56,879 nt of DNA from an uncultured virus (IMG/VR IMGVR_UViG_3300021138_000005) (IMGVR_UViG_3300021138_000005), one strand, 5' to 3'; counted from the first letter of the stretch, positions 1 through 55,499 are shown. Numbers and translations are program-made. Notes: a model not told the origin generated them from the letters alone.

Positions 1-476
1 TGTCAGGCAATAGAGATATTATCCAAAATAATATACGCAAGCAGCTAGCAATGCAGAGTGGCCAGATCAAGGGCACTAATCAAAACGGAAATTGGCAATG
101 GTCTAATTCTGCTGGTTCTCCGTTACCAAACAGCAGTGATTATGGAAACTACGCATTATCGCAGGCACCTGCTCGATATGTAACCAGCATGAGCACCAGT
201 ACATACGAGCTGGCTAAAGGCATGTTTGGTGGTCCAAATGTGCCAGAAGAACTAATAGAAGTATTGGCTAACATGGCCACATATTATGCCAGCCAGACTG
301 GCCAACCTGTGACCAATCTGTTCAAGAAGGGCATAATGATAAATGACTTCCTTGCTACTGTGAACAGCATTCGACTGCCAACAAGCCAGCTAGGATATGT
401 GGGGATCAATCCTAACCCTGTGTGGATCAATAATCCAACACTAGGGCCAACCATAGAAGCGGTATTAACCTCGTGA
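1..476 (+). CDS. hypothetical (probable virion/baseplate-region) protein, likely starting just before the window
   Basis: The frame of ORF 51..476 stays open to the window edge (tca ggc aat aga... = SGNRDIIQNNIRKQLA-MQSG); no recognisable motif. Confidence 0.55.
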   Translation, partial: SGNRDIIQNNIRKQLAMQSGQIKGTNQNGNWQWSNSAGSPLPNSSDYGNYALSQAPARYVTSMSTSTYELAKGMFGGPNVPEELIEVLANMATYYASQTGQPVTNLFKKGIMINDFLATVNSIRLPTSQLGYVGINPNPVWINNPTLGPTIEAVLTS

Positions 477-1621
477 CATCTGTACCATATTGCATCTATC
501 CGTGGTATCATCAAAAAATTGGTACTGACGGAAATGCGCTACCCTGCTGTGCATGGAGTAAATCCGAAATACAAACTCGAGATGGGTTCATACACAGCGA
601 CTTCATGCAAGATCTTAGACAAAAGATGCTTGATCACCAGCCTCCGTCTAATTGTTGGAAATGCAGCCATTCTGAGTCGCATGGTAAGAAAAGCGTGAGG
701 CAAGTTGGCTTTGAAGATGCAGAATTTACTGGCATTGATTGGCAAGACACTATTAGTGTACGTAGCCAAGAAGTAGATCTCAGCAATGTGTGCAATCTTA
801 GATGCCGTATGTGTAGCAGTACTCGATCCAGCAAATGGGCAGCTGATGAGATAGCTATGGGTCAACCGGCTGCAGGATTGATGCAAAATGATTGGCATCT
901 CAGCATAGAAGAAGCCAAGGTTACCAGAACACTAACCTTTTTGGGCGGCGAACCTCTGCTGCATCAAGATAGGATTTACACAGCATTAAGACTCATCGAC
1001 CAACATGGAGAGATTGACAAGCTGTATGTTATGATGAGCACCAATGCGATGCAGTTTATAACTGATGAATTGTTAGATCTATTGCTGAAATGTCGCCTTG
1101 TTAGATTCTGTCTTAGCATCGACGGTTTTGGAGCAATTTCTGAGTACATACGTTCCGACAGCGATTGGGAAACCATAAATCATGTCACTATGAAAATAGA
1201 TGATCTGCGCAGAAATAATGAAAACATAGTGTATCACATACAGCCGACTATATCCATCTACAATTACGATATGATGGATGAGTTAGTAGATTGGGCTAAT
1301 AATCTATCTACGAAACCTGGTATATCTCCTGTGTTCTTGCATTGGCCAAACAGCATGTCTGCATTAAACATACCTATGCACCTGCGACTACCAGTATCTG
1401 CTAGATATGAGCAGCGTAGCGACTGGCCAATTTATGGACAAATGTATTCTATAGTAAGCAGTTTCCTCGGTGCAGACGAACACCGAGACATTAAATTATT
1501 GGATGATTTTCATAAACTTAATAGCAAATTAGATGAATTACGTAATACATCTTTGGCTGCATCTAATCCCGAATTAGATGCATTCATATCAACAATAACA
1601 GAGTATTCTAACCATGAGTAA
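473..1621 (+). CDS. radical SAM protein with N-terminal twitch/SPASM-like Cys cluster
   Basis: CNLRCRMC (CxxxCxxC), GGEP and SIDG motifs; N-terminal C..PW / PCC / CxxC. Confidence 0.85.
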   Translation: MTSVPYCIYPWYHQKIGTDGNALPCCAWSKSEIQTRDGFIHSDFMQDLRQKMLDHQPPSNCWKCSHSESHGKKSVRQVGFEDAEFTGIDWQDTISVRSQEVDLSNVCNLRCRMCSSTRSSKWAADEIAMGQPAAGLMQNDWHLSIEEAKVTRTLTFLGGEPLLHQDRIYTALRLIDQHGEIDKLYVMMSTNAMQFITDELLDLLLKCRLVRFCLSIDGFGAISEYIRSDSDWETINHVTMKIDDLRRNNENIVYHIQPTISIYNYDMMDELVDWANNLSTKPGISPVFLHWPNSMSALNIPMHLRLPVSARYEQRSDWPIYGQMYSIVSSFLGADEHRDIKLLDDFHKLNSKLDELRNTSLAASNPELDAFISTITEYSNHE

Positions 1622-2054
1622 ATACAGCCAAGGTCGTTTCATACCAAAGAACCCAGCTAAACTGATTGGCAAAGCTGATGTAGTGTTCCGCAGCAGCTGG
1701 GAACTAACCGTAATGAACTTCCTTGACACACATCCAAGCGTGATACAGTGGGCTAGCGAGAGTCTGCGCATACCCTACACTAATCCTCTTACGGGTAAAC
1801 CTAGCCAATACGTGCCTGATTTCATGGTGTTATACCAAGACAAGAATGGAAATCGCCGAGCAGAAGTGGTAGAAGTTAAACCCAGCAAAGAAGCTATTGC
1901 AGAGAATGCCAAGAGCAAGCGCGATAAGGTAAGCCTCATATTAAACACTGCTAAATGGGCAGCAGCTATGGCATTTTGCAAGAAGAATGGCATGACTTTC
2001 AGGATCCTCACTGAAAGCGACATATATATCACAAAGCCCAAGAGGAAACGCTGA
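1614..2054 (+). CDS. head completion nuclease (T4 gp4-like / TnsA N-terminal PD-(D/E)xK fold)
   Basis: QGRFIPKNPAK..FRSSWE..WASE..IPY..YVPDF..EVKP..N.AKW.AA pattern typical of gp4-like proteins. Confidence 0.8.
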   Translation: MSKYSQGRFIPKNPAKLIGKADVVFRSSWELTVMNFLDTHPSVIQWASESLRIPYTNPLTGKPSQYVPDFMVLYQDKNGNRRAEVVEVKPSKEAIAENAKSKRDKVSLILNTAKWAAAMAFCKKNGMTFRILTESDIYITKPKRKR

Positions 2055-8649: not shown

Positions 8650-9702
8650 ATGGGATTAGACCTTAAAGCTATACAAGCTAAACTACTCGAGCAACAGGCT
8701 CGCAAAGACCGCTCCAAGGGCGGCACATTTACCGGAGACAATTCAATCTATCCATTCTGGAACAACCCAGAGGGCTCCACTGCCACTCTGAGGTTTCTCC
8801 CGGACGGCGACGACACCAACGACTTCTTCTGGGTGGAACGGCTCATCATCAAGATTCCATTCCCTGGAGTCAAGGGGCAAAATGATGCTCGTCCAGTTGA
8901 AGTGCAGGTTCCTTGCATGGACATGTGGAAGCCGGGCAGCTGCCCCATCGCAGCCGAAACACGTCCATGGTGGAAGGATCCTACTTTGGAAGATATGGCT
9001 CGCAAGTACTGGCGGAAGAAGAGCTATGTGTTCCAGGGTTTTGTCACGCAGAATCCTAACAAGGATGATAACACGCCGGAAAATCCAATCCGGAGATTTA
9101 TCATCAATCCTAGCGTGTTTGATGCTATTAAGGCAATCCTTATGCGTCAGGACCTTGAAAATAGCCCTACTGATTACGCATCTGGACGTGATTTTTACCT
9201 TAGCAAGACAACTAAAGGAGGCTATGCCAATTATAGCAGCTCTAGTTGGTCAATGAAGGAACGCGGTCTCAGCGAAGACGAGCTGAGCGCAGTGGAAAAG
9301 CACGGCTTGTTTACGCTCAACAGCTTCCTCCCAAAGAAGCCAGATGATGCGCATCTCGCAGCTATCATGGAACTGTTTGAAGCCTCAGTGAACGAGGAAC
9401 TCTACGATGCAGATCGATGGGGACAGTTCTATCGTCCAAACGGCATGCGCATGGATAGCTTTGCTAACAACAACGATGATGCCACTGCCAACACTGTGGC
9501 CACACCTGTGACCAAACCAGTCACAGCAGCCAGCATCATGGAACGTGCGGCTCCAAAAGCAGCTCCTGTGGATGAAGCTCCATTTGATGCGGATCCCCCA
9601 AAAGCAGCAGCGGTGACACCAGCAGGCGACAAGCCAAAGCTAAGCTCACCAGATGACATCCTGGCAGCTATCCGCGCACGCAAGCTCGGCGGTCAATCTT
9701 AA
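8650..9702 (+). CDS. single-stranded DNA-binding protein (T4 gp32-like)
   Basis: ATLRFLPD, CPI, YWRKKSY, GRDF..K...GGYANY.SS motifs; GGAGG RBS; sits upstream of recA. Confidence 0.85.
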   Translation: MGLDLKAIQAKLLEQQARKDRSKGGTFTGDNSIYPFWNNPEGSTATLRFLPDGDDTNDFFWVERLIIKIPFPGVKGQNDARPVEVQVPCMDMWKPGSCPIAAETRPWWKDPTLEDMARKYWRKKSYVFQGFVTQNPNKDDNTPENPIRRFIINPSVFDAIKAILMRQDLENSPTDYASGRDFYLSKTTKGGYANYSSSSWSMKERGLSEDELSAVEKHGLFTLNSFLPKKPDDAHLAAIMELFEASVNEELYDADRWGQFYRPNGMRMDSFANNNDDATANTVATPVTKPVTAASIMERAAPKAAPVDEAPFDADPPKAAAVTPAGDKPKLSSPDDILAAIRARKLGGQS

Positions 9703-9713
9703 TCCATAACATC

Positions 9714-9741
9714 TAGGATGGGCGATGTCTCGCCCATCCTA
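9714..9741 (+). terminator. perfect 12-bp hairpin between the SSB and recA genes (terminator or processing site)
   Basis: taggatgggcga-tgtc-tcgcccatccta; no U-tract. Confidence 0.45.
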
Positions 9742-9764
9742 CCACATGATCACAGGAGCAAAAC

Positions 9765-10853
9765 GTGAAGCCATTTGACATCAGTAAGTTTCGCCGCGAC
9801 ATCGCCAAGACCATTCCCAGTCTCAGCCTTGGTTTCCATGATCCAAAGACTTGGATCCACAGCGGTAATTACGCACTAAACTATGCTATCAGTGGTGACT
9901 TCAAGAACGGTATCCCGTTGGGCAAGGTCACCATGTTCGCTGGACAATCTGGTTCCGGCAAAAGCTATATCTGCTCAGGCAACGTCATACGAAACGCTCA
10001 GCGAGCGGGTGTGTTCCCGATCTTGATCGATACAGAGAACGCACTTGACGAGAACTGGCTCAAGCCACTGGGTGTTGATACAAGCGAAGAAAAGCTGCTC
10101 AAAGTAAACATGGCCATGATCGACGACGTTGCTCGTTTGGTCAGCGACTTCATGAAGGACTACAAGAGCCGCTTTGACAAGGTTGAAACAGCAGAGCGTC
10201 CAAAGATCCTGTTCGTGTTAGATTCGCTGGGCATGTTGCTGACTCCCACTGACGTCAATCAGTTCGAAGCTGGTGAGATGAAAGGTGACATGGGTCGCAA
10301 GCCCAAGGCACTGGCAGCATTGGTGCGCAACTGTGTGAACATGTTTGGCGAGTATGACGTGGGCTTGGTGGTTACCAACCATACCTATGCATCACAGGAC
10401 ATGTTTGATCCAGATGACAAGATCTCCGGCGGTCAGGGTTTCGTGTACGCTTCATCTATCGTGGTAGCCATGCGCAAGCTCAAGCTCAAGGAAGACGAGG
10501 AAGGCAAGAAAGTCACAGACGTGCGAGGTATCCGTGCTGCCTGCAAGATCATGAAGACGCGCTATAACAAGCCCTTTGAAAGCGTGGAGATCAAGATACC
10601 CTGGGACACTGGCATGAATGAGTACAGCGGCCTCATTGAAATGTTTGAAAAGAAGGGTGTGTTGGTCAAGGATGGCAACAAGCTCAAGTACACCGACAAG
10701 ACAGGCAAGGAACATAAGTACTTCCGGTCTGGCGTCAGCGATGAGCTGTTGGATCTGATCATGACTGAATGGGACGAGAGCAAGGTGGTTGTCGCCCAGG
10801 ATGTTGTGGATCCAGACGCTGATGATCAAGATATCGCACCATCGGAGGATTGA
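9765..10853 (+). CDS. uvsX: RecA/UvsX recombinase
   Basis: GQSGSGKS Walker A, IDTENALD, VLDSLG, GDMG, VTNHTY, SGG.GF.YASS. Confidence 0.93.
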   Translation: MKPFDISKFRRDIAKTIPSLSLGFHDPKTWIHSGNYALNYAISGDFKNGIPLGKVTMFAGQSGSGKSYICSGNVIRNAQRAGVFPILIDTENALDENWLKPLGVDTSEEKLLKVNMAMIDDVARLVSDFMKDYKSRFDKVETAERPKILFVLDSLGMLLTPTDVNQFEAGEMKGDMGRKPKALAALVRNCVNMFGEYDVGLVVTNHTYASQDMFDPDDKISGGQGFVYASSIVVAMRKLKLKEDEEGKKVTDVRGIRAACKIMKTRYNKPFESVEIKIPWDTGMNEYSGLIEMFEKKGVLVKDGNKLKYTDKTGKEHKYFRSGVSDELLDLIMTEWDESKVVVAQDVVDPDADDQDIAPSED

Positions 10854-10856
10854 TAT

Positions 10857-11105
10857 ATGAACGTTAGCGCAAGCTTGATGCTGGAAGTCTGGGAAGTGGT
10901 CAGTGAACTGCTCCCCAACAACAAACGCGAAGACATGGCCCGCAAGCTGGTCAACATCTTCGCAGACAAGGGCATGGACCGAGACGATTTCGAAGCCATC
11001 CACGGCGAAGATGAGCACCTTGACAGTGCCATAGAAGCACAGTACACTGGTGAGTCAGCTGGTTATGATGACTATGATGACGAACTATCCTATGAGGATG
11101 AATGA
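10857..11105 (+). CDS. hypothetical acidic protein
   Basis: GGAGG RBS; tightly packed in the recA operon. Confidence 0.65.
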   Translation: MNVSASLMLEVWEVVSELLPNNKREDMARKLVNIFADKGMDRDDFEAIHGEDEHLDSAIEAQYTGESAGYDDYDDELSYEDE

Positions 11106-11305
11106 TGATAATGAAAGTGAAGGCAAATACTGCAAGCAGTCCTGGCGAAACGGAGGATCTGCTTGATAGAGCAAAGACAGCACTAGAATCTAAAGATCAA
11201 GCTACCATCGCTGCATTACAATTAGAGATACAATTAGCCATGCTGCAGTACCTACAACGGATAGATTGGAAACTCTGGGAACTCTACAACAAGTTCGGGA
11301 CTTAA
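11102..11305 (+). CDS. hypothetical protein
   Basis: Overlaps upstream stop, abuts next gene. Confidence 0.55.
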   Translation: MMIMKVKANTASSPGETEDLLDRAKTALESKDQATIAALQLEIQLAMLQYLQRIDWKLWELYNKFGT

Positions 11306-11779
11306 ATGTGGTACAACAAGATAGTCGATGACATGGGGCAACTACCAGATGCCATCGACTGGTTCCAGAAACAGCTGGAGACAGCCTGGGTGGAAGCAAA
11401 GATAGTTGGTGGCATTGAGCGTGCTGCCCAGGAGCTCAGCGGCATCATGGCCTACCGCTTCGGGCAGCTACAGGAAGTAGAAGCCATACTCAAGCATCTT
11501 AATATTCGCTATGACAAGATGCGCAGCGACCATTATCGCAAGTATCTTGAGCGCTATCAGCGCGAGCTCACTGATCGCAGCATTGAAAAGTACATAGATG
11601 GCGAGGATGACGTGGTCACCATGGCCACGCTGATCAACGAAGTTGCGCTGGTGCGCAACAAGTATCTGGCACTGATCAAAGGCCTGGAACAGAAATCATA
11701 TAACATATCTAATATCATCAGATTACGAGTGGTTGGAATGGAAACAGTAACATTAGACCAAGGTATGATTGGGTCCTAA
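11306..11779 (+). CDS. UvsY-like recombination mediator
   Basis: Helical ~157 aa, 'Y..ELT...IEKYIDGEDDV' pattern, located after uvsX. Confidence 0.65.
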   Translation: MWYNKIVDDMGQLPDAIDWFQKQLETAWVEAKIVGGIERAAQELSGIMAYRFGQLQEVEAILKHLNIRYDKMRSDHYRKYLERYQRELTDRSIEKYIDGEDDVVTMATLINEVALVRNKYLALIKGLEQKSYNISNIIRLRVVGMETVTLDQGMIGS

Positions 11780-11880
11780 GTGATTTATTCTGCCTCTTAT
11801 TAAATTTAATTGGGCAATTTTTACATCTTTTTCCGTATTTTTGTCAGTGATTTCAACAGCGTATTTGGTTAAATTAACGC

Positions 11881-11908
11881 TTGACAGACCGTAGCAGTGT
11901 GCTATTGT
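11881..11908 (+). promoter_or_regulatory. sigma70-like early promoter
   Basis: TTGACA-N16-TATTGT with extended TG, preceded by an AT-rich UP-like tract. Confidence 0.6.
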
Positions 11909-11941
11909 ACACATATTAGAGCAACAGCTACGGAGATTCTC

Positions 11942-12964
11942 ATGGAACAGTATGTGCGCATTAGCTCGGGTTGGACCCGCGGTGGGGCTACTATTACAGA
12001 TCGTTCTTTCCTCTTGCTGGACAATCTCAAGCGTGACAAGGACGGCATGTACATCACCGTGGACAGTGACGGTGGTGCAGATCTCCGCGCTGGACGCAAC
12101 CGCGTTTACATGGAAGGCATCCACTGCTTCGCACCCACAACCAAGGATGCTGGCATACCCAGCATGATTCCTGTGCAGAGCAAGACTGATGAAGAGATCG
12201 CGCATGACCAGCGCGAGACGTTTGAGATCCTGGGCGAGATGACCCGCGCAGTTGCCAGCAACACGGTCAAGGGCTTGGTCGTGAGTGGTCCGGCTGGTAT
12301 TGGCAAGAGCCACACTGTGGAGACCACGCTGCACGACACGTTGGACATGCTGGGCAAGCTCACTGGACAGGGCAGCATGTATGAAGTGATCAGCGGTGGC
12401 ATCAGTGCTGCTGTGCTCTACGAAAAGCTCTGGGAATACCGCGAAGACAGCCAGGTGCTGGTGTTTGACGACTGCGACGGTGTGCTCTACGACGAAGACA
12501 GCTTGAACGTGCTTAAGGCAGCACTGGACAGCAAGAAGACGCGCCGCATCAGCTGGAACACACGCAGCCTGCATCTGGAGCGCAAGGACATCCCCAACAG
12601 CTTTGAGTACAAGGGCGGTGTGATCTTCATCACCAACGTGAAGTTTGACCAGGTCAAGAGCGCACGCATTGGCAACCACCTGGAGGCTATCATGAGCCGC
12701 TGCCATTACATGGACATCGGCATTGACACTGCTCGTGAGAAACTGCTGCACATCCGCAATGTGGTCGAACGCAGCAACATGCTGGGCAGCTATGGCTTCG
12801 ACGCAGATACCAAGGCTGAGGTCATGGGCTATATCAATGACCACAGCAAGCAGTTGCGCGAGCTTAGCCTGCGCATGGTGCTGAAGATAGCTGACTTGCG
12901 CAAGGCAATGCCTGGCAATTGGAAACGTTTCGTTGAAAAAAACTGCCATCGCAAGACAGCGTGA
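11942..12964 (+). CDS. AAA+ family ATPase
   Basis: GPAGIGKS Walker A, LVFDDCD Walker B, FITN sensor, SRC arginine finger; start moved to ATG 11942 after GGAG RBS. Confidence 0.8.
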   Translation: MEQYVRISSGWTRGGATITDRSFLLLDNLKRDKDGMYITVDSDGGADLRAGRNRVYMEGIHCFAPTTKDAGIPSMIPVQSKTDEEIAHDQRETFEILGEMTRAVASNTVKGLVVSGPAGIGKSHTVETTLHDTLDMLGKLTGQGSMYEVISGGISAAVLYEKLWEYREDSQVLVFDDCDGVLYDEDSLNVLKAALDSKKTRRISWNTRSLHLERKDIPNSFEYKGGVIFITNVKFDQVKSARIGNHLEAIMSRCHYMDIGIDTAREKLLHIRNVVERSNMLGSYGFDADTKAEVMGYINDHSKQLRELSLRMVLKIADLRKAMPGNWKRFVEKNCHRKTA

Positions 12965-12977
12965 TTAAATATCTCCA

Positions 12978-14138
12978 ATGGAAACAATAGTAGACTCGGA
13001 TAGCTATTGCGCAGCCCCATTTAAGCATATGGTAGCTGAATCGAACGGTAGGATAGCGCCCTGCTGTCTTTGGATTGATCAACCTAGCGATGCTGACCGA
13101 CCAAACGCCCTGTCAGTAGATCCTTTCAATAGCAAATGGATGGACAGCATAAGGTCATCTATGCTGAACAATGGAAGGCTAGCTGGATGTAACGAATGTT
13201 ACTTGCGAGAAGCATCTGGAGTGAGCAGTTATCGCAATGCGTTTAATATTGAGTTTGGTCGACCAAAAGCACCCGAATTAGAATACCTCGAATTCAATCT
13301 AGGTAATCTATGCAATCTAAAATGCCGCATGTGCGGATCGTGGAGCAGCAGCAAGTGGGCAGCAGATGAGATTGCCTTGGGTCTCAGACCAGATGATTTA
13401 GTGCGGCCAAAGATAGAAATGCTAGCGCCCTATCTAGCTACATTAAAAAAGATCAGATTCATAGGTGGTGAACCCAGCTTGGAACAGGATGCTATTTTTG
13501 AGATATTAAATCAAATACATGCTGCGACTGGTACAGTATCTCATCTGCACGTGATCCTTACAACTAATGTCATGGTATTGTTTGAACCCAGGGTTATTGA
13601 GCAGCTTAGCAGATGCCTGAGAGTCGAACTGCAGTGTAGCGTTGATGGCTACAAACAGGTCAATGATTATCAGCGCACTGGGTCGGACTGGAAACAGGTA
13701 TCAGAAAATCTCAGCTGGTACCAAGAACATTCACCAGATGTGTTTGATCCTATGATATTAACATCTTGGTCGTTATTAAATGCCGGTTCTGCGATAGATC
13801 TGCTAACCTTTGTCAAAGATACATTACCTAGATTCTATGTGTGGGGGCATTTGGTGCGGGAACCAGCATATCTCGACATTTGCAACCTACCACAAGATTT
13901 GAAATTCAAGTTAAGATCTAAACTTGATCAATGGAGTTTGTATGACGATACGCATTGGATACGTCATAACAAACAGGTAATAATTTCTCAACTTGTGTTA
14001 GAATCTAAAATATCGCCAACTGATGTTATGGCAAAGATTGCGGTATTAGACAGATTGCGAAATGAGGATTTTGCCAGCATCTTTCCAGAAACACACGCAG
14101 CATTATTAGCAGCTTGCGAAAACACCAATCAGGCATAA
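12978..14138 (+). CDS. radical SAM protein with N-terminal twitch/SPASM-like Cys cluster (paralog of 473..1621)
   Basis: CNLKCRMC, SSKWAADEIA identical to the first paralog, GGEP, SVDG. Confidence 0.85.
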   Translation: METIVDSDSYCAAPFKHMVAESNGRIAPCCLWIDQPSDADRPNALSVDPFNSKWMDSIRSSMLNNGRLAGCNECYLREASGVSSYRNAFNIEFGRPKAPELEYLEFNLGNLCNLKCRMCGSWSSSKWAADEIALGLRPDDLVRPKIEMLAPYLATLKKIRFIGGEPSLEQDAIFEILNQIHAATGTVSHLHVILTTNVMVLFEPRVIEQLSRCLRVELQCSVDGYKQVNDYQRTGSDWKQVSENLSWYQEHSPDVFDPMILTSWSLLNAGSAIDLLTFVKDTLPRFYVWGHLVREPAYLDICNLPQDLKFKLRSKLDQWSLYDDTHWIRHNKQVIISQLVLESKISPTDVMAKIAVLDRLRNEDFASIFPETHAALLAACENTNQA

Positions 14139-14144
14139 ACTAAT

Positions 14145-14495
14145 GCTGAGCTGTGTGCCATCAGAAAGGTTACCGCTGATGGGAATCTGCCTAGGATCAA
14201 CACCCAGGGTCCGCATAGCTAGCGAACCGGGAGCGCGGGCCTTGAGCCCAGTCGTCCAGCGCATCTATCGGGGCTGCTTGGTGACGAGGAAAAGTGGCTG
14301 ACTGTTTTTCCATGCTGGAGCAGCACAGCAGCCTAGGTCTCCGGACCTGACGGCGCTACTATACGGCATGGTCGTGAAGCTGGGTGCGTAGTTCTTGATA
14401 AGAGCCAGTTGCGGTGCAGGTGGTATTGGGCAGCAGTGAACGGACCTACGATAACGGTCGCCGGAGGAGTGGACGCTCGCGTAACCGGCTCTTGC
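14145..14495 (+). ncRNA. putative structured non-coding RNA, family unassigned
   Basis: ~350-nt GC-rich gap without a credible ORF, with several complementary segments (see findings); strand uncertain. Confidence 0.5.
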
Positions 14496-14520
14496 TCTTG
14501 ACACAATCTCCGACTATATT
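14492..14520 (+). promoter_or_regulatory. groES promoter
   Basis: TTGCTC-N17-TATATT directly upstream of CIRCE; a TTGACA also lies at 14498. Confidence 0.55.
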
Positions 14521-14528
14521 ATGAGGTG

Positions 14529-14555
14529 TTAGCACTGCCACACATGGAGTGCTAA
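14529..14555 (+). promoter_or_regulatory. CIRCE element (HrcA operator)
   Basis: TTAGCACTG-N9-GAGTGCTAA versus consensus TTAGCACTC-N9-GAGTGCTAA, immediately upstream of groES. Confidence 0.9.
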
Positions 14556-14581
14556 CTTTCCATTTAACATAGGAGACAACG

Positions 14582-14872
14582 ATGGAACTGAGACCGCTTA
14601 ATAATCGGGTCATAGTAAAGCGCGTGGACAGCGAGACTGTCACGAAGGGCGGCATCGTCATCCCGGACACAGCAGCAGAGAAGCCAGACCAAGGCACTGT
14701 TCTCGCTGTTGGCAAGGGAACCAAGGATGATAGCGGCAACTATATCCCGCTGGATGTTAGCGTGAATGATCGCGTGTTGTTTGGCAAGTATGCAGGCACA
14801 CAGATCAAGATTGACGGGCAAGACCTACTTGTCCTCAAAGAAGAAGAACTTTTTGCCGTTATTGAAAACTGA
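14582..14872 (+). CDS. groES: co-chaperonin GroES
   Basis: [36 protein letters not shown]. Confidence 0.97.
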
Positions 14873-14879
14873 GGAGTAG

Positions 14880-16514
<1,635 letters not shown>

Positions 16515-16540
16515 TTGGATTCACATTGCCGTAAATATGT

Positions 16541-16564
16541 AGAGGAGGGAGCAATCCCTCCTCT
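16541..16564 (+). terminator. hairpin terminator after groEL
   Basis: agaggaggga-gcaa-tccctcctct. Confidence 0.6.
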
Positions 16565-16602
16565 CTGCTTGTGTGATGGCCCAATATGAGGTATACTGAT
16601 AC

Positions 16603-18069
16603 ATGATCAAACACGCCGTAATCCGCATCGAAGACGAAGTTAATATAGCTATGACAGGTCTTGATCTAGGTGCTCGCAAGGCCTGCGTGAACGCTGTGAA
16701 ATACTTCATCCCAGGCGCACGTTATAGTGCTGCATATCGTCTGGGCAGATGGGACGGAACCAAGAGCTTTGCCACTCTGGGAGGTAGGACCTATCTCAAT
16801 CTCTTAGATCGCATGCTACCTATCTTACAGGAGCATGGCTACGATTTTGAGATAGAAGACAACCGGCTGCGCTATGAGCTGAGCTTGAACACAGTTACCG
16901 ATCAAGCACATGCCCACAAGGTGTGGCCCAAGGGACACGAGCGTGCCGGACAGCAGATATTGCTGCGTGACTACCAGGTGGATGTAATCAACACATTCGT
17001 AGAAAATCTACAAGCAGTTCAACAGGTTGCTACAGGCGCAGGGAAGACTCTGATCACAGCTACATTAAGTGGATTAATAGAACCCTATGGCCGCAGCATA
17101 GTGATCGTGCCCAACAAGAGCTTGGTTGAGCAGACTGCGATTGACTACAGAAATCTGGGGTTGGACGTGGGTGTGCTCTACGGTGATCGCAAGGAATATG
17201 ATCGCACACACACCATCTGCACTTGGCAGAGCCTGAACGTGCTGGACAAGAAGAGCAAGGATGCGCTGGATGACCATCAGCATGAGATATTCATGCGTGA
17301 CCTCATGGGCATCATCGTGGACGAGGCACACATGGCCAAGGCAGACGTGCTGACCAAGCTGCTGACCAACAACTTCCGCCACATACCCATACGCTGGGGA
17401 TTGACTGGTACGATCCCAGAGGAAGAAGAGAGTCAGATCAGCCTGCTAGCGGCCATTGGCCCCAACGTAGGCGATCTGTTTGCGCATGAGCTACAGGATC
17501 GTGGCGTGTTGGCCAAGTGCCATGTGAACGTGCTGCAGACTCGCGAGACAGTGAAGTACACCAACTACCAGGAAGAGCTCAAGTTCCTCACCACTGACAC
17601 AGATAGAATCAAGTGGATGGCCAAGATGATTGGTGCTATCAAGGACAGCGGCAACACGCTGGTGTTGGTTGATCGCATTGAAACTGGCAAGATGTTGGAA
17701 GAATACATCCGAGGCAGCACATTCATCAGCGGCGCAGTCAAGACCAAGGACCGCAAGGAAGAGTATGACAACATTGCCATCAGCGATGATCAGGTGTTGA
17801 TAGCCACCTATGGCGTGGCAGCGGTGGGCATCAATGTGCCTCGCTTGTTCAATCTGGTCATGCTAGAGCCAGGCAAGAGCTTTGTGCGAGTGATCCAGAG
17901 CATTGGTCGTGGACTGCGCAAGGCTGAAGACAAGGATTTTGTTCAGATCTGGGATCTAACCAGCACCTGTAAGTTCAGTGCCAAGCACTTGGCCAAGAGG
18001 AAAACTTTCTATACCCAAGCTCGCTATGACTTTACCATTGAAAAAGTAGACAGAACTGCCCTAGAATAA
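16603..18069 (+). CDS. uvsW: UvsW-like superfamily 2 DNA helicase
   Basis: WDG motif, LRDYQ, ATGAGKT, DEAH, GLTGT, QSIGRGLR. Confidence 0.9.
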   Translation: MIKHAVIRIEDEVNIAMTGLDLGARKACVNAVKYFIPGARYSAAYRLGRWDGTKSFATLGGRTYLNLLDRMLPILQEHGYDFEIEDNRLRYELSLNTVTDQAHAHKVWPKGHERAGQQILLRDYQVDVINTFVENLQAVQQVATGAGKTLITATLSGLIEPYGRSIVIVPNKSLVEQTAIDYRNLGLDVGVLYGDRKEYDRTHTICTWQSLNVLDKKSKDALDDHQHEIFMRDLMGIIVDEAHMAKADVLTKLLTNNFRHIPIRWGLTGTIPEEEESQISLLAAIGPNVGDLFAHELQDRGVLAKCHVNVLQTRETVKYTNYQEELKFLTTDTDRIKWMAKMIGAIKDSGNTLVLVDRIETGKMLEEYIRGSTFISGAVKTKDRKEEYDNIAISDDQVLIATYGVAAVGINVPRLFNLVMLEPGKSFVRVIQSIGRGLRKAEDKDFVQIWDLTSTCKFSAKHLAKRKTFYTQARYDFTIEKVDRTALE

Positions 18070-34947: not shown

Positions 34948-35612
34948 TGACTGTTGTCACTGATGCAGAACGCGAGGCAATGGCCCGCATGATGGCCATA
35001 ATGAATGGCGAAGCACCACCGGCTCCTCGTGCCAATGGTAATCAGATGGTCACAGAGAGCCTCAGCACCGAAGGCGGCCCAGGCAGCCCTAGCCAAGCAG
35101 AAGTACATGCTATGGCTCGAGTGCTGGAGAATCTCAACAAGGTTGCCAACGAAGTGATCATGGAAAGCAACCAGGATACCAAGCTGGCAGTCCACACGCG
35201 CAGAGACACCAATAGTGTTAGCGTTGGCGAGTACAAGATAGAGATACATCTAAACGAGCAACGTGCCGCAGGCAAGCAATACTATAGCATTGAGCACAGT
35301 GGTACTGGTATCGTGATTGCCAATGACATCACTCTGTATGAAGTAGCATTGGCTGCCGTTAAGATGCTGAACAATCACAAGTATGTGAACAATCCAACTG
35401 TGCGCAGATTGTTTGAGCTTGACGATCATTACACCAGCTGCAAGATTGATGCCATGAGCAGCAAGCAGGCACAGAAGCGTGCCGAACAGCGCGGTGACAT
35501 GATCAAGGAAGATATCTACGCAACCAAGTTCCAGAAAGCCCTTGATACTGCTGGAAGCATCAAGCGCGACATAAAGGCGATCCTCGAAGATGCCGGTAAA
35601 GCTAACCGATAA
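34947..35612 (+). CDS. hypothetical protein
   Basis: 221-aa ORF in the late operon. Confidence 0.7.
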   Translation: MTVVTDAEREAMARMMAIMNGEAPPAPRANGNQMVTESLSTEGGPGSPSQAEVHAMARVLENLNKVANEVIMESNQDTKLAVHTRRDTNSVSVGEYKIEIHLNEQRAAGKQYYSIEHSGTGIVIANDITLYEVALAAVKMLNNHKYVNNPTVRRLFELDDHYTSCKIDAMSSKQAQKRAEQRGDMIKEDIYATKFQKALDTAGSIKRDIKAILEDAGKANR

Positions 35613-35907
35613 AGCCATAGAACGTTTTGGTCAGCTGCGTGCTACCAGTGCAGGCGATCCGCGAATAGAAATACGTGCTGGTGGTTGTAATGGTTTTGAG
35701 AAGCGATTCAGTTGGACCGTGGACCGTTATGATGATGATATGATATTAGAAACAGCATCAGGTCCGGTGGTCATTGACAGCATCAGCTATGACATGTTAG
35801 ACAATGCTGTGGTAGATTATAAAACTGATCTAGCCGGAGCGTATTTTGTCATAGACATACCAGAAGCGGCTAGCACCTGTGGTTGCGGCACCAGTTTCAG
35901 CCTTTAA
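35590..35907 (+). CDS. iscA: A-type Fe-S cluster carrier (IscA/SufA/HesB family)
   Basis: GGCNGF and C-terminal TCGCGTSF. Confidence 0.9.
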   Translation: MPVKLTDKAIERFGQLRATSAGDPRIEIRAGGCNGFEKRFSWTVDRYDDDMILETASGPVVIDSISYDMLDNAVVDYKTDLAGAYFVIDIPEAASTCGCGTSFSL

Positions 35908-42145: not shown

Positions 42146-42679
42146 ATGATGATTTACACAGAAACAACTCCAAATCCTGATGCCATTAAGTTCATACCTA
42201 CTGTACCTGTAACTACCGGCGGTACCATAGATGTGAGATCGCATCAACATACCCATAACATACATCTGTTAAATGAGCTGTTTAACATACCTGAAATAAT
42301 TGGTGTATATCTGGGATCAGATTTTGTCACAATAACCAAAGACGCTGGAAGCTGGGATGATATCAGATCTGCGATAATTGGTATAATCGCTGAGAATCTC
42401 AGCGAACCGATCGATCTATCAACAAATTCAAACCAACCTAGTTCAACAAACAGCAACACAGTCAATCAGATCTTGGAACTATTAGATCAAAGGATAAGAC
42501 CAGCAGTTGCCAACGACGGCGGTGACATCGTATTCAAGGATTACACAGACGGTATAGTATATCTAGAGCTGCAGGGCAGCTGCAGCGGTTGCCCAAGCAG
42601 CACGGCTACATTACGCTATGGTGTAGAAAATCTTATCAAGCATTACATTCCTGAAGTACTAGAAGTGAGATCCATCTGA
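42146..42679 (+). CDS. nfuA: NifU/NfuA-type Fe-S scaffold/carrier
   Basis: TETTPNPDAIKF N-domain; IRPAVANDGGDI, GSCSGCPSSTATL C-domain. Confidence 0.92.
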   Translation: MMIYTETTPNPDAIKFIPTVPVTTGGTIDVRSHQHTHNIHLLNELFNIPEIIGVYLGSDFVTITKDAGSWDDIRSAIIGIIAENLSEPIDLSTNSNQPSSTNSNTVNQILELLDQRIRPAVANDGGDIVFKDYTDGIVYLELQGSCSGCPSSTATLRYGVENLIKHYIPEVLEVRSI

Positions 42680-55172: not shown

Positions 55173-55499
55173 GTCATTGTTGATAGCATTTGATAGGCGG
55201 ACAAGACGGGGCTTCGATGCCCCCACCTCCACCATAGATACATCTTTGACTAACGATATTTGGTTAAAGGCTGCAGAGCAGATATGAAGGTGTATCTTTG
55301 TCGGGGGTGAAAGGGATCGATTGACGTGCTGGATGATGAAGTAGATGGCAGGTTAGGCACGCCTCCGGGCAACCGGATAGTCCAAAAAACTAAATGCAGC
55401 GAAAGCAGCAAATGACAATACTCCTTTTGAAGCAATGAAAATTGCCGCCTAAGGTTTAGTGTCTGCGGTCAGGGGAGAACCGTATTACCCAATCTCCCC
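55173..55499 (+). ncRNA. ssrA: circularly permuted (two-piece) tmRNA
   Basis: Acceptor 3' end GACGGGGCTTCGATGCCCCCACCTCCACCA (ends 55234) precedes 5' end GGGGGTGAAAGGGATCGA (55303); G3-U pair; tag ORF ...ANDNTPFEAMKIAA* ending 55452; outer boundaries approximate. Confidence 0.9.

What the first reader, a model, noticed from the sequence alone, without database searches (positions are those of the whole stretch)
14145..14495. Unassigned ~350-nt structured RNA between a radical SAM gene and groES
Seen: the longest non-coding gap in an otherwise tightly packed window, clearly GC-richer than the upstream gene. It has nested complementarity: gctgtgtgc (14150-58) with gcagcacagc (14320-29) closes a ~180-nt domain containing ccatcag/ctgatgg (14158-82), gggc-cttga-gccc (14237-49), ccagc/gctgg (14256-14318) and ggaaaag/tttttcc (14288-14311). 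It continues with aggtc-tccg-gacct (14335-48) and a second domain closed by aagagccagttgcg (14400-13) with cgtaaccggctctt (14480-93). GCCTAGG and CGGACCT each occur twice, allowing alternative pairings. I cannot match it to RNase P, SRP, 6S, tRNA or a known riboswitch. Inference: a possibly undescribed phage ncRNA (protein sponge, ribozyme or chaperone-linked regulator); its 3' end abuts the groES promoter.
Basis: partly seen in the sequence, partly recalled or inferred. Interest (0 to 1): 0.75.

Follow-up and report, generated by a model that had tools for sequence, protein, structure and literature searches.

The report
New structured RNA of lake jumbo-phages
A roughly 340-base stretch just upstream of a giant freshwater phage's chaperonin genes looks like a conserved, folded, non-protein-coding RNA gene of no known family, whose job is still unknown.

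Summary
The gap is real: 14139-14581, 443 nt. It holds a sharply bounded conserved block, about 14148-14495. I found 12 distinct full-length variants plus one truncated copy, all in one clade of uncultured freshwater jumbo phages.

- **Selection:** the block is more conserved than four-fold degenerate sites of the adjacent groEL (0.74-0.94 against 0.53-0.81).
- **Not coding:** 1-nt indels shift every reading frame.
- **Folded:** several local helices carry compensatory changes.
- **Own promoter:** a conserved sigma-70-like promoter sits in front, TTGC-N16/17-TAAAYT at 14114-14141.
- **Downstream neighbour:** the groES promoter and a CIRCE operator follow it.
- **In RNA libraries:** contigs from 4 of 4 laid lake metatranscriptomes cover 14160-14489.
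- **No known family:** no Rfam 15 family matches. It is absent from the nearest outgroup phages, including one complete 381-kb genome, and was not found in the bacterial genomes searched.

Verdict: a genuine, apparently undescribed, clade-restricted phage ncRNA gene of about 342 nt on the + strand. Its function is unknown. My best guess is a trans-acting protein-binding RNA that works through its near-invariant 3' 60 nt.

The parts
12978..14138 (+). Upstream twitch-domain radical SAM gene. It is variable and optional, and not part of the RNA.
   Evidence: NF033640 at 232.6 bits against a cut-off of 170. It is only 48-73% aa identical among phages whose GroEL is 94-99% identical. It is absent in L001, L003, L109 and L011. 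GC is low.
14114..14119 (+). -35-like hexamer TTGCGA of the RNA's promoter
   Evidence: TTGC is invariant in 11 of 11 aligned sequences although the upstream genes differ (A1). The promoter totals 8 of 12 consensus matches, below the scan tool's threshold of 9, so it was not listed. This assignment is an inference.
14136..14141 (+). -10-like hexamer TAAACT. It contains the stop codon of whichever gene lies upstream.
   Evidence: TAAACT, TAAATT or TAAAAT is conserved in all variants, 16-17 nt after TTGC. This assignment is an inference.
14148..14489 (+). Body of the proposed ncRNA, about 342 nt
   Evidence: Conservation starts at about 14148. CM R1 matches at E 1e-116 to 1e-163 in relatives. 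Contigs from RNA libraries cover 14160-14489 and stop at 14487-14489 in 3 runs. The + strand is favoured: 98.4% of cells pair against 91.3% if read on the - strand.
14149..14220 (+). 5' three-way domain. Outer stem 14149-57/14212-20, hairpin 14158-64/14176-82, hairpin 14190-95/14204-08.
   Evidence: the first hairpin has 4 of 7 pairs compensatory, the second has 2 of 5, and the outer stem shows 3 wobble-consistent changes. An alternative partner for the 5' strand is 14323-29, with 1 compensatory pair.
14221..14278 (+). Domain 2. Stems 14221-23/14276-78 and 14225-29/14269-73 enclose hairpin 14237-40/14246-49.
   Evidence: Three sequence groups keep the stem with different pairs. 14225-73 is A-U, C-G or A.G. 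14227-71 is U-A, C-G or U-G. 14221-78 is G-U, G-C or A-U. The hairpin loop varies (UUGA/CAGA) while its stem is invariant.
14280..14309 (+). Variable, indel-rich stretch
Evidence: Indels of 1-3 nt and substitutions.
14310..14371 (+). Domain 3. Stem 14310-15/14366-71 encloses hairpin 14335-39/14344-48.
   Evidence: 100% of cells pair and both one-sided changes give G-U. The loop of the inner hairpin varies. No double changes, so this is compatible rather than proven.
14378..14438 (+). Domain 4, a three-way junction. Stem 14378-90/14427-38, hairpin 14393-96/14400-03, hairpin 14404-12/14416-24.
   Evidence: 14393-14403 is U-A in 5 and G-C in 6 of the 11 distinct sequences. 14382-14434 switches G-C to A-U. 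In L011 the second hairpin is replaced by a shorter hairpin of different sequence.
14435..14494 (+). Near-invariant 3' block. Proposed hairpin 14443-46/14456-59, terminal stem 14460-64/14485-89 and small hairpin 14473-75/14480-82.
   Evidence: 55 of 60 positions are invariant in 12 sequences. Variation is confined to the 4-nt loop 14476-79. The stems are invariant and therefore untested.
14492..14520 (+). groES promoter: -35-like TTGCTC (14492-97), 17-nt variable spacer, -10-like TATATT (14515-20)
   Evidence: The spacer 14496-14512 is variable, while GACTATATTAT is conserved, also in outgroup L013. This assignment is an inference.
14529..14555 (+). CIRCE-like operator TTAGCACTG-N9-GAGTGCTAA
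   Evidence: It occurs once in the window, against 0.03 expected. It matches 17 of 18 bases of the consensus quoted in a passage of PMC7464140. An exact-pattern scan of the 163 fetched loci matched 53, including most element-bearing loci but not L001 or L012, whose alignment rows nevertheless show the repeat. It is not present as such in L013 or L026.
14582..14872 (+). groES (Cpn10), followed by groEL at 14886-16514
   Evidence: Pfam PF00166 at 1e-32 and PF00118 at 3e-81.

Best explanation
Window 14114-14489 is a separate gene for a structured non-coding RNA of about 342 nt on the + strand.

Host RNA polymerase would start at about 14148 from a conserved sigma-70-like promoter (TTGCGA-N16-TAAACT). 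The transcript folds into at least four local multi-helix domains plus 3' hairpins. It ends at about 14489, at the foot of a terminal GCCGG/CCGGC stem, directly in front of the -35 of the CIRCE-controlled groESL promoter.

One clade of roughly 0.5-Mb freshwater jumbo phages gained it, and it has been kept under purifying selection there while the genes upstream of it are swapped or lost.

- **Supported directly by the data:** conservation, non-coding nature, local helices with compensatory changes, presence in RNA-library contigs, and no known family.
- **Inferred:** promoter, ends and strand.

The mechanism I commit to is inference, and I put it at about 0.35 on its own. The RNA acts in trans as a stable protein-binding RNA, a scaffold or decoy. 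Its near-invariant and partly single-stranded 3' 60 nt, which includes CCGGAGGAGUGGA, would be the recognition surface. It would not act as an antisense RNA or as a leader of groES.
For: **Conservation and selection**
- The block is sharply bounded and shared by 12 distinct full-length variants at 80-94% identity.
- In all 7 phage comparisons, identity to the window is higher in the block (0.74-0.94) than at four-fold sites of the adjacent groEL (0.53-0.81).
- The neighbouring radical SAM gene is only 48-73% aa identical or absent, and the AAA gene is 61-96% identical or absent.

**Non-coding**
- Indels of 1 nt shift the frame of every ORF. The ATG at 14143 is lost in L003 and L007. Peptides differ completely between variants.

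**Structure**
- A curated set of 75 pairs gives 98.4% of 820 cells paired.
- 11 pairs changed on both sides. Shuffles average 3.9, with 0 of 500 reaching 11, and slid registers give 0-2.
- The double changes come from several lineages, not only from L011.
- Hairpin loops vary while their stems hold. One hairpin is replaced in L011 by a different hairpin.

**Strand**
- 59 G-U cells would become C-A on the other strand, so pairing is 98.4% on + against 91.3% on -.

**Promoter**
- TTGC is invariant in 11 of 11 sequences across unrelated upstream genes, with a TAAAYT 16-17 nt later.

**RNA libraries**
- In 4 of 4 laid lake metatranscriptome runs (4 studies), contigs lie on 14160-14489.
- One contig is 317 nt long and lies wholly on 14173-14489.
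- Contigs of 3 runs stop at 14487-14489 with no loose end, while DNA contigs such as L105 run on. This is a weak hint of a 3' end.

**No known family or antisense target**
- No Rfam family matches.
- No complement longer than 12 nt exists elsewhere in the window.
Against: - Folding energy is no better than dinucleotide shuffles (z -0.08 and -0.64).
- There are only 11-12 closely related sequences, so covariation power is low. I chose the curated structure after looking at these same sequences, which biases towards it.
- 7 of the 11 double-changed pairs involve the single divergent L011 lineage.
- Several strands have alternative partners that the data cannot separate. Examples are 14150-57 with 14212-20 or 14323-29, and GACC 14443-46 with 14456-59 or 14370-73.
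- The promoter hexamers total only 8 of 12 consensus matches, and the scan tool reported neither promoter nor terminator here.
- Contigs cannot give strand, level or true ends, and RNA libraries can contain DNA.
- No partner protein, target or activity is known. The trans-acting protein-binding mechanism rests only on the pattern of invariance and on the failure of alternatives.
Confidence: 0.6

Rival explanations
1. It is a cis-acting upstream transcript of groESL. Transcription from the 14114-14141 promoter reads through the weak 3' stem into groES. This would give a long processed leader or HrcA-independent expression, or it would modulate the overlapping groES -35 by transcriptional interference. 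The conserved fold would serve processing, stability or termination control.
For: The block ends 2-3 nt before the -35-like TTGCTC of groES. No canonical terminator was found. The RNA block and the CIRCE operator are both specific to the same clade and adjacent, while outgroups L013 and L026 have neither.
Against: A separate conserved -10 (GACTATATTAT) and operator lie between the block and groES, and that -10 is shared with outgroup L013, which lacks the block. The spacer 14496-14512 is free to vary. Contigs of three RNA runs end at 14487-14489 without a loose end (weak). 340 nt under this much constraint is a lot for an interference element.
Confidence: 0.15
2. It is a primer or R-loop transcript of a replication origin. 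It would be a structured, G-rich RNA made from its own promoter that forms a persistent hybrid and primes DNA synthesis, in the manner of ColE1 RNA II or the T4 ori(uvsY) transcript. Both comparisons are recalled, not tested here.
For: The RNA strand is G-rich: G 118 against C 88 in 348 nt. It sits inside the recombination and replication cluster of gp32, UvsX, UvsY-like and UvsW-like helicase genes. It has its own promoter.
Against: Cumulative GC skew does not turn here. No AT-rich unwinding element follows. The closest outgroup phages lack the block altogether, including one complete genome, which is odd for an origin. The 3' end appears to sit at a stem, not in a hybrid-forming tract (weak).
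Confidence: 0.07
3. It is a DNA-level element with only incidental transcription. It could be a protein-binding or recombination-boundary region next to a hypervariable gene slot.
For: The block marks the edge of a slot where genes are exchanged or lost. Thermodynamic stability is unremarkable.
Against: Compensatory changes keep base pairs in at least five helices. The G-U pattern is strand-specific. Loops vary while stems hold. The block is present in RNA-library contigs.
Confidence: 0.08
4. It is a highly diverged member of a known RNA class (RNase P RNA, 6S, SRP, tmRNA piece, GOLLD/ROOL-like) that covariance models miss.
For: Its size is in the range of RNase P RNA, tmRNA and CsrB (sizes recalled). 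The phage already carries a permuted tmRNA gene at 55173-55452, so it does import host-type RNAs.
Against: No hit at E up to 10 in the gap of the window. None lies on the element in 11 homologous loci, where the single hit, IRES_Bip at E 0.036, falls outside it. No recognisable class-defining sequence blocks are visible by eye, which is inference only.
Confidence: 0.05
5. It encodes a small protein: the 52-aa + strand ORF 14143-14301 or the 79-aa - strand ORF 14265-14504.
For: Both ORFs exist in the window. A + strand ORF starting near 14143 is open for 46-99 codons in most variants.
Against: A 1-nt insertion at the hairpin loop in L001, L073 and L011 changes the whole downstream peptide. The start codon is lost in L003 and L007. 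The 79-aa - strand ORF is absent from 5 of 12 variants and shifted in others. There is no Shine-Dalgarno sequence before 14143.
Confidence: 0.02

Closest known systems
Large 'ornate' phage-associated ncRNAs of unknown function (GOLLD, ROOL). Seen only as a search listing and abstract of bioRxiv 10.1101/2024.12.08.627333; sizes and gene contexts are recalled.
   Same: Both are phage-borne, hundreds of nucleotides long and multi-helix. Both are conserved without coding, were found in lake or environmental sequence, and have no known function.
   Different: There is no cmscan match to either family. This RNA is shorter, at about 342 nt. It is not next to tRNA genes. It is known from one narrow phage clade only.
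CsrB/RsmZ-type protein-sponge sRNAs (features recalled)
   Same: Similar size, own promoter, many hairpins and a terminal stem-loop. Both would act in trans by binding protein, which is my proposed mode.
   Different: The defining repeated GGA loops are not enriched: 10 observed against 8.1 expected. No internal repeat unit was seen by eye; I ran no repeat-finding tool on the element.
ColE1 RNA II and T4 ori(uvsY) primer transcripts (recalled)
   Same: Both are structured, G-rich transcripts with their own promoters. This one lies in a replication and recombination gene neighbourhood.
   Different: There is no sign of an origin: no skew turn. The block is absent from sister phages.
CIRCE/HrcA-controlled groESL leader
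   Same: Immediately adjacent. A 17-of-18 match to the CIRCE consensus lies at 14529-14555.
   Different: The conserved block lies upstream of the groES -35/-10, so it is not part of that leader.

Membership tests
Any Rfam 15 family, including RNase P, 6S, SRP, tmRNA, GOLLD, ROOL, riboswitches and freshwater motifs | Covariance-model score at or above the family's gathering score | tested here: not met
   The only gathering-level hit in the window is tmRNA_permuted at 55173-55452. At E up to 10 the gap gives only ceN33 (E 5.1) and mir-16 (E 9.9). Eleven homologous loci give one hit, outside the element.
Structured ncRNA (generic) | Base pairs maintained by compensatory substitutions | tested here: met
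   11 of 75 pairs changed on both sides, against a shuffle mean of 3.9 (0 of 500 shuffles reach 11) and 0-2 in slid registers. 98.4% of cells pair. Caveats: only 11 distinct sequences, and the structure was chosen on the same data.
Structured ncRNA (generic) | Fold more stable than dinucleotide shuffles | tested here: not met
   z is -0.08 (372 nt) and -0.64 (342 nt), with 48 and 28 of 100 shuffles folding as well.
Independent sRNA gene | Own promoter and defined 3' end | tested here: inconclusive
   TTGC-N16/17-TAAAYT is conserved across unrelated upstream genes but falls below the scan's threshold, and no terminator was reported. RNA-library contigs of 3 runs stop at 14487-14489 (weak hint).
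Protein-coding gene | Reading frame and start codon conserved among homologues | tested here: not met
   Frameshifting 1-nt indels, lost start codons and unrelated peptides.
CsrB-like sponge | Many GGA / ANGGA motifs | tested here: not met
   GGA occurs 10 times against 8.14 expected (fraction of shuffles reaching 10 is 0.28). A.GGA occurs once against 1.65 expected.
Riboswitch or 5' leader of groES | Lies between the gene's promoter and its start codon | tested here: not met
   The conserved -35/-10 and CIRCE of groES lie 3' of the block (14492-14555), separated from it by a freely varying spacer. Promoter positions are inferred, not mapped.
Antisense (base-pairing) sRNA with a target in this window | Extended complementarity to another transcript | tested here: not met
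   The longest complement elsewhere in the window is 12 nt, which is chance level. The rest of the roughly 0.5-Mb genome and the host could not be tested.
Ribozyme | Catalytic activity or a known catalytic core | not testable with these tools
   No Rfam ribozyme family matches. Activity needs a bench assay.

The most novel reading that the evidence does not exclude
This is the founding member of a new class of large structured phage RNA. One lineage of half-megabase lake phages gained it together with a host-type CIRCE operator. It works as an RNA-protein or RNA-only assembly, or as a ribozyme, that ties phage development to the host's chaperone and heat-shock circuit. For example, it might capture a host regulator through its invariant 3' block.
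Probability: 0.15. Interest if true: 0.8.

Novelty: new variant of a known kind. Interest (0 to 1): 0.58.

Why it matters
Large conserved non-coding RNAs without a known function are rare, and past examples have turned out to be unusual machines. This one is well bounded and clearly non-coding. Local helices are supported by compensatory changes, and it appears in natural lake RNA libraries. It sits in uncultured phages of about 0.5 Mb that also carry their own chaperonin, tmRNA and Fe-S assembly genes.

It gives a short, synthesisable candidate for structure probing, cryo-EM and pull-downs. It is also a concrete case of a giant phage gaining an RNA gene next to a host-style heat-shock operator. 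Its narrow distribution and unknown function limit the immediate impact.

Tried and rejected
**Searches for relatives that found nothing**
- blastn of 14100-14600 against GenBank phages gave no match.
- An exact 24-mer of the GGAAAAG hairpin was absent from IMG/VR, because that region is variable.
- Motif scans brought chance hits that the covariance model rejected:
  - 17 of 31 viral loci.
  - 11 of 21 metagenome loci, for example a high-GC coding sequence in L103.
  - L149 and L154.
  - 8 of 8 bacterial genome loci.
- CM R1 found nothing in 60 of the 71 groEL loci. It found nothing in 5 outgroup phage contigs, including a complete 381-kb genome. The positive control matched 3 of 3 contigs, one copy each.
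- In 151 sampled genomes of the class of G009, only 2 chance-level hits appeared (13.6 and 14.8 bits). One lies in a genome flagged unpublished (G049). Nothing rests on it beyond the count of 2 of 151.
- An earlier-findings look-up returned nothing.

**Structure and function ideas that failed**
- The RNAalifold and MFE long-range closure (14227-36 with 14476-88) was rejected. The 3' side varies without compensation and is better explained as the loop of a small hairpin.
- A CsrA-type sponge was rejected.
- An antisense target inside the window was rejected.

**Metatranscriptome observations that are not evidence**
- No contig was laid on 13900-14137 or on 14512-14545 in any of the 4 runs, and only X3 has any cover in 14546-14579. 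These flanks vary between strains, and holes prove nothing, so I do not use them.
- Contig starts at 14173 fall right after a strain-variable site and say nothing about a 5' end.
- Contig depths were not used to rank the RNA against groES.

**Other**
- No whole genome is held for this window.
- Literature searches found no description of this RNA (listings and abstracts only).

Full report
**What is in the sequence.** The gap runs from 14139 to 14581 (443 nt). It lies between a twitch-domain radical SAM ORF (12978-14138; NF033640) and groES-groEL (14582-14872 and 14886-16514). GC across the gap is 0.54-0.60. The upstream gene is at 0.33-0.47 and the window averages about 0.47. GCCTAGG and CGGACCT each occur twice in the gap. 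The predicted fold is no more stable than dinucleotide shuffles. For 14139-14510 on the + strand z is -0.08, on the - strand z is +0.33, and for 14148-14489 z is -0.64. ARAGORN finds no tRNA or tmRNA. Rfam 15 has no match in the gap at gathering level, and only two junk hits at E 5-10.

**Who carries it.** The window belongs to a jumbo phage. Its UvsW-like helicase is about 50% identical to those of Sinorhizobium phage Phosso, Agrobacterium phage Atu_ph07 and PA5oct-like phages. GenBank phages have no DNA match to the gap.
- Using GroEL as bait I fetched 71 IMG/VR loci. A covariance model built from seven copies (R1) matched the window and 11 of the 71 loci at E 1e-116 to 1e-163. These are exactly the phages whose GroEL is 94-99% identical.
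- Motif scans of IMG/VR and of JGI metagenomes added a few more copies.
- In total there are 12 distinct full-length variants plus one copy truncated by a contig end.
- The nearest outgroups (GroEL 59-86% identical) have only about 90-140 nt in front of groES and no match.
- Five outgroup contigs searched whole, one of them a complete 381-kb genome, have no copy. Three positive controls each have exactly one.
- An exact-motif scan of one genome per prokaryotic species gave 8 loci, none confirmed.
- A sample of 151 genomes of the class of G009 gave only two chance-level hits. One is in a genome flagged unpublished, and nothing rests on it.
- So the element is a gain of one phage clade. A 216-kb contig of this clade is rated 42% complete, which implies a genome of about 0.5 Mb.

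**Conservation.** The conserved block is sharply bounded. Similarity begins at about 14131-14148 and ends at 14495. A freely varying spacer follows (14496-14512), and then conserved groES control signals.
- What lies upstream differs between phages. It can be a radical SAM gene only 48-73% identical in protein. It can be no radical SAM gene (L001, L109, L003). The AAA gene upstream is 61-96% identical, or absent in L011.
- In all seven comparisons the block is more similar to the window (0.74-0.94, gaps counted as differences) than four-fold degenerate sites of the adjacent groEL (0.53-0.81). That is purifying selection on the nucleotide sequence itself.
- The last 60 nt (14435-14494) are invariant at 55 positions in 12 sequences.

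**Not coding.** Single-nucleotide indels occur at several places among sequences that are otherwise about 90% identical.
- The + strand ORF starting at 14143 loses its ATG in L003 and L007. In L001, L073 and L011 a 1-nt insertion throws it into another frame, which gives unrelated peptides.

**Structure.** RNAalifold structures were unstable between parameter settings. I therefore tested helices one by one on the alignment. I kept a nested set of 75 pairs, all in local domains.
- **5' three-way domain:** 14149-57/14212-20, enclosing hairpins 14158-64/14176-82 and 14190-95/14204-08.
- **Domain 2:** 14221-23/14276-78 and 14225-29/14269-73, enclosing GGGC/GCCC.
- **Domain 3:** 14310-15/14366-71, enclosing AGGUC/GACCU.
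- **Domain 4, a three-way junction:** 14378-90/14427-38, with hairpins 14393-96/14400-03 and 14404-12/14416-24.
- **Three 3' hairpins.**

On 11 distinct sequences 98.4% of 820 cells pair. Eleven pairs changed on both sides. Shuffles average 3.9, none of 500 reaches 11, and slid registers give 0-2. The double changes do not come from one lineage only.
- Pair 14393-14403 is U-A in five and G-C in six distinct sequences.
- Domain 2 is kept with three different pair combinations in three sequence groups.
- Hairpin loops vary while their stems hold. In L011 one hairpin is replaced by a shorter one of different sequence.

The caveats are serious.
- The sequences are few and close.
- I chose the structure after seeing them.
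- Seven of the 11 double changes come from L011.
- Five helices never vary and so are untested.
- Several strands have alternative partners that cannot be told apart.

The contradicted ones are GGAAAAG/TTTTTCC and the 14-bp closure of the '3' domain'.

**Strand and signals.** Fifty-nine paired cells are G-U, which would be C-A on the other strand. Pairing is therefore 98.4% on + against 91.3% on -. That comparison is biased by how the structure was chosen, but it agrees with the promoter.
- **RNA promoter.** TTGC at 14114-17 is invariant in 11 of 11 aligned loci although it sits inside the last codons of different genes. TAAACT, TAAATT or TAAAAT follows 16-17 nt later. This hexamer contains the stop codon of whichever gene lies upstream. 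Such a promoter would start the RNA at about 14148, where conservation begins. The hexamers total 8 of 12 consensus matches, below the scan tool's threshold, so this promoter is an inference from conservation.
- **groES signals.** Directly after the block come a -35-like TTGCTC (14492-97), a variable 17-nt spacer and a conserved -10-like TATATT within GACTATATTAT. Next is TTAGCACTG-N9-GAGTGCTAA at 14529-14555. This matches 17 of 18 bases of the CIRCE consensus quoted in a passage of PMC7464140 and is visible in all 11 aligned rows of A1. An exact-pattern scan of the fetched loci found it in most element-bearing loci but missed L001 and L012. L013 and L026 do not have it in this form.
It also means the element is not the groES leader.

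**RNA libraries.** Twenty-two public lake-water runs hold a small share of the sampled words of 13900-14900, and 20 of them are on record as RNA. I laid four of them, from four studies. In all four, contigs lie on the element (14160-14489). One is a 317-nt contig that lies wholly on 14173-14489. Contigs of three runs stop at 14487-14489 with no loose end, while metagenomic DNA contigs such as L105 continue. That position is the foot of the proposed terminal GCCGG/CCGGC stem and 5-7 nt before the first strain-variable site. I read it as a weak hint of a 3' end. These are contigs, so they give neither strand nor level, and RNA libraries can contain DNA.

**What it is not.**
- No Rfam family matches the window copy or falls on the element in 11 homologous loci.
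- GGA motifs are not enriched (10 against 8.1 expected), so a CsrB-type sponge is not supported.
- No complement longer than 12 nt exists elsewhere in the window.
- Neighbouring genes include no recognisable RNA-binding protein. They are gp32, UvsX, a UvsY-like protein, phrog_1250 AAA, radical SAM, GroES/EL, a UvsW-like helicase and glutaredoxin.

**Most likely explanation.** This is an independent gene for a structured ncRNA of about 342 nt, which I put at about 0.85. How it acts is open. I commit, at about 0.35, to a trans-acting protein-binding RNA whose near-invariant 3' 60 nt is the recognition surface. My reasons are as follows.
- Sequence rather than only pairing is frozen in that block.
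- Part of that block is predicted to be unpaired.
- The rest of the molecule behaves like a scaffold of exchangeable hairpins.
- Antisense, leader, sponge-repeat and coding readings each fail a test.

The rivals are a cis-acting upstream transcript of groESL (0.15), a DNA-level element (0.08), an origin primer or R-loop RNA (0.07), a diverged known class (0.05) and a small protein (0.02).

**Novelty.** Searches of the paper library (listings and abstracts only) turned up no description of such an RNA, and Rfam 15 has none. It is a new family within a known kind, the large phage ncRNAs of unknown function. It has a narrow distribution, which tempers its interest.

Noticed in passing
window 55173-55452 (+): There is a full-length match to Rfam tmRNA_permuted (RF04321, 75.5 bits, E 1e-12). 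It suggests the phage carries its own two-piece tmRNA gene. ARAGORN did not report it.
   Followed up: no
window 14529-14555: A CIRCE-like HrcA operator (17 of 18 consensus bases) sits in front of the phage groESL. An exact-pattern scan found it in most element-bearing relatives (it missed L001 and L012, whose aligned sequences nevertheless show the repeat), but not in this form in outgroups L013 and L026. The phage chaperonin may therefore be under host heat-shock repression.
   Followed up: partly
window 473-1621 and 12978-14138: Two paralogous twitch-domain radical SAM genes (NF033640). The one next to the RNA is low in GC and only 48-73% identical among phages with near-identical GroEL. 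It is absent from some of them, so it sits in a fast-turnover gene slot. NifU-like (42146-42679) and IscA-like (35590-35907) Fe-S assembly genes are also present.
   Followed up: partly
L013 5727-8282: In this outgroup phage the UvsW-like helicase homologue is split by about 1.1 kb. Residues 2-148 and 149-482 match on either side of the insert. It could be an intron, an intein or a homing-endonuclease insertion.
   Followed up: no
window 8650-18069: A T4-like recombination and replication cluster: gp32-like, UvsX/RecA-like, UvsY-like (phrog_231) and UvsW-like helicase genes. groESL and the RNA are embedded in it.
   Followed up: partly
window 1614-2054: A TnsA-like endonuclease N-terminal domain protein (PF08722, 3e-22) lies next to the first radical SAM gene.
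   Followed up: no
G006 (contig of L003): CheckV rates a 216-kb contig of this clade as 42% complete. These phages may therefore have genomes near 0.5 Mb.
   Followed up: no
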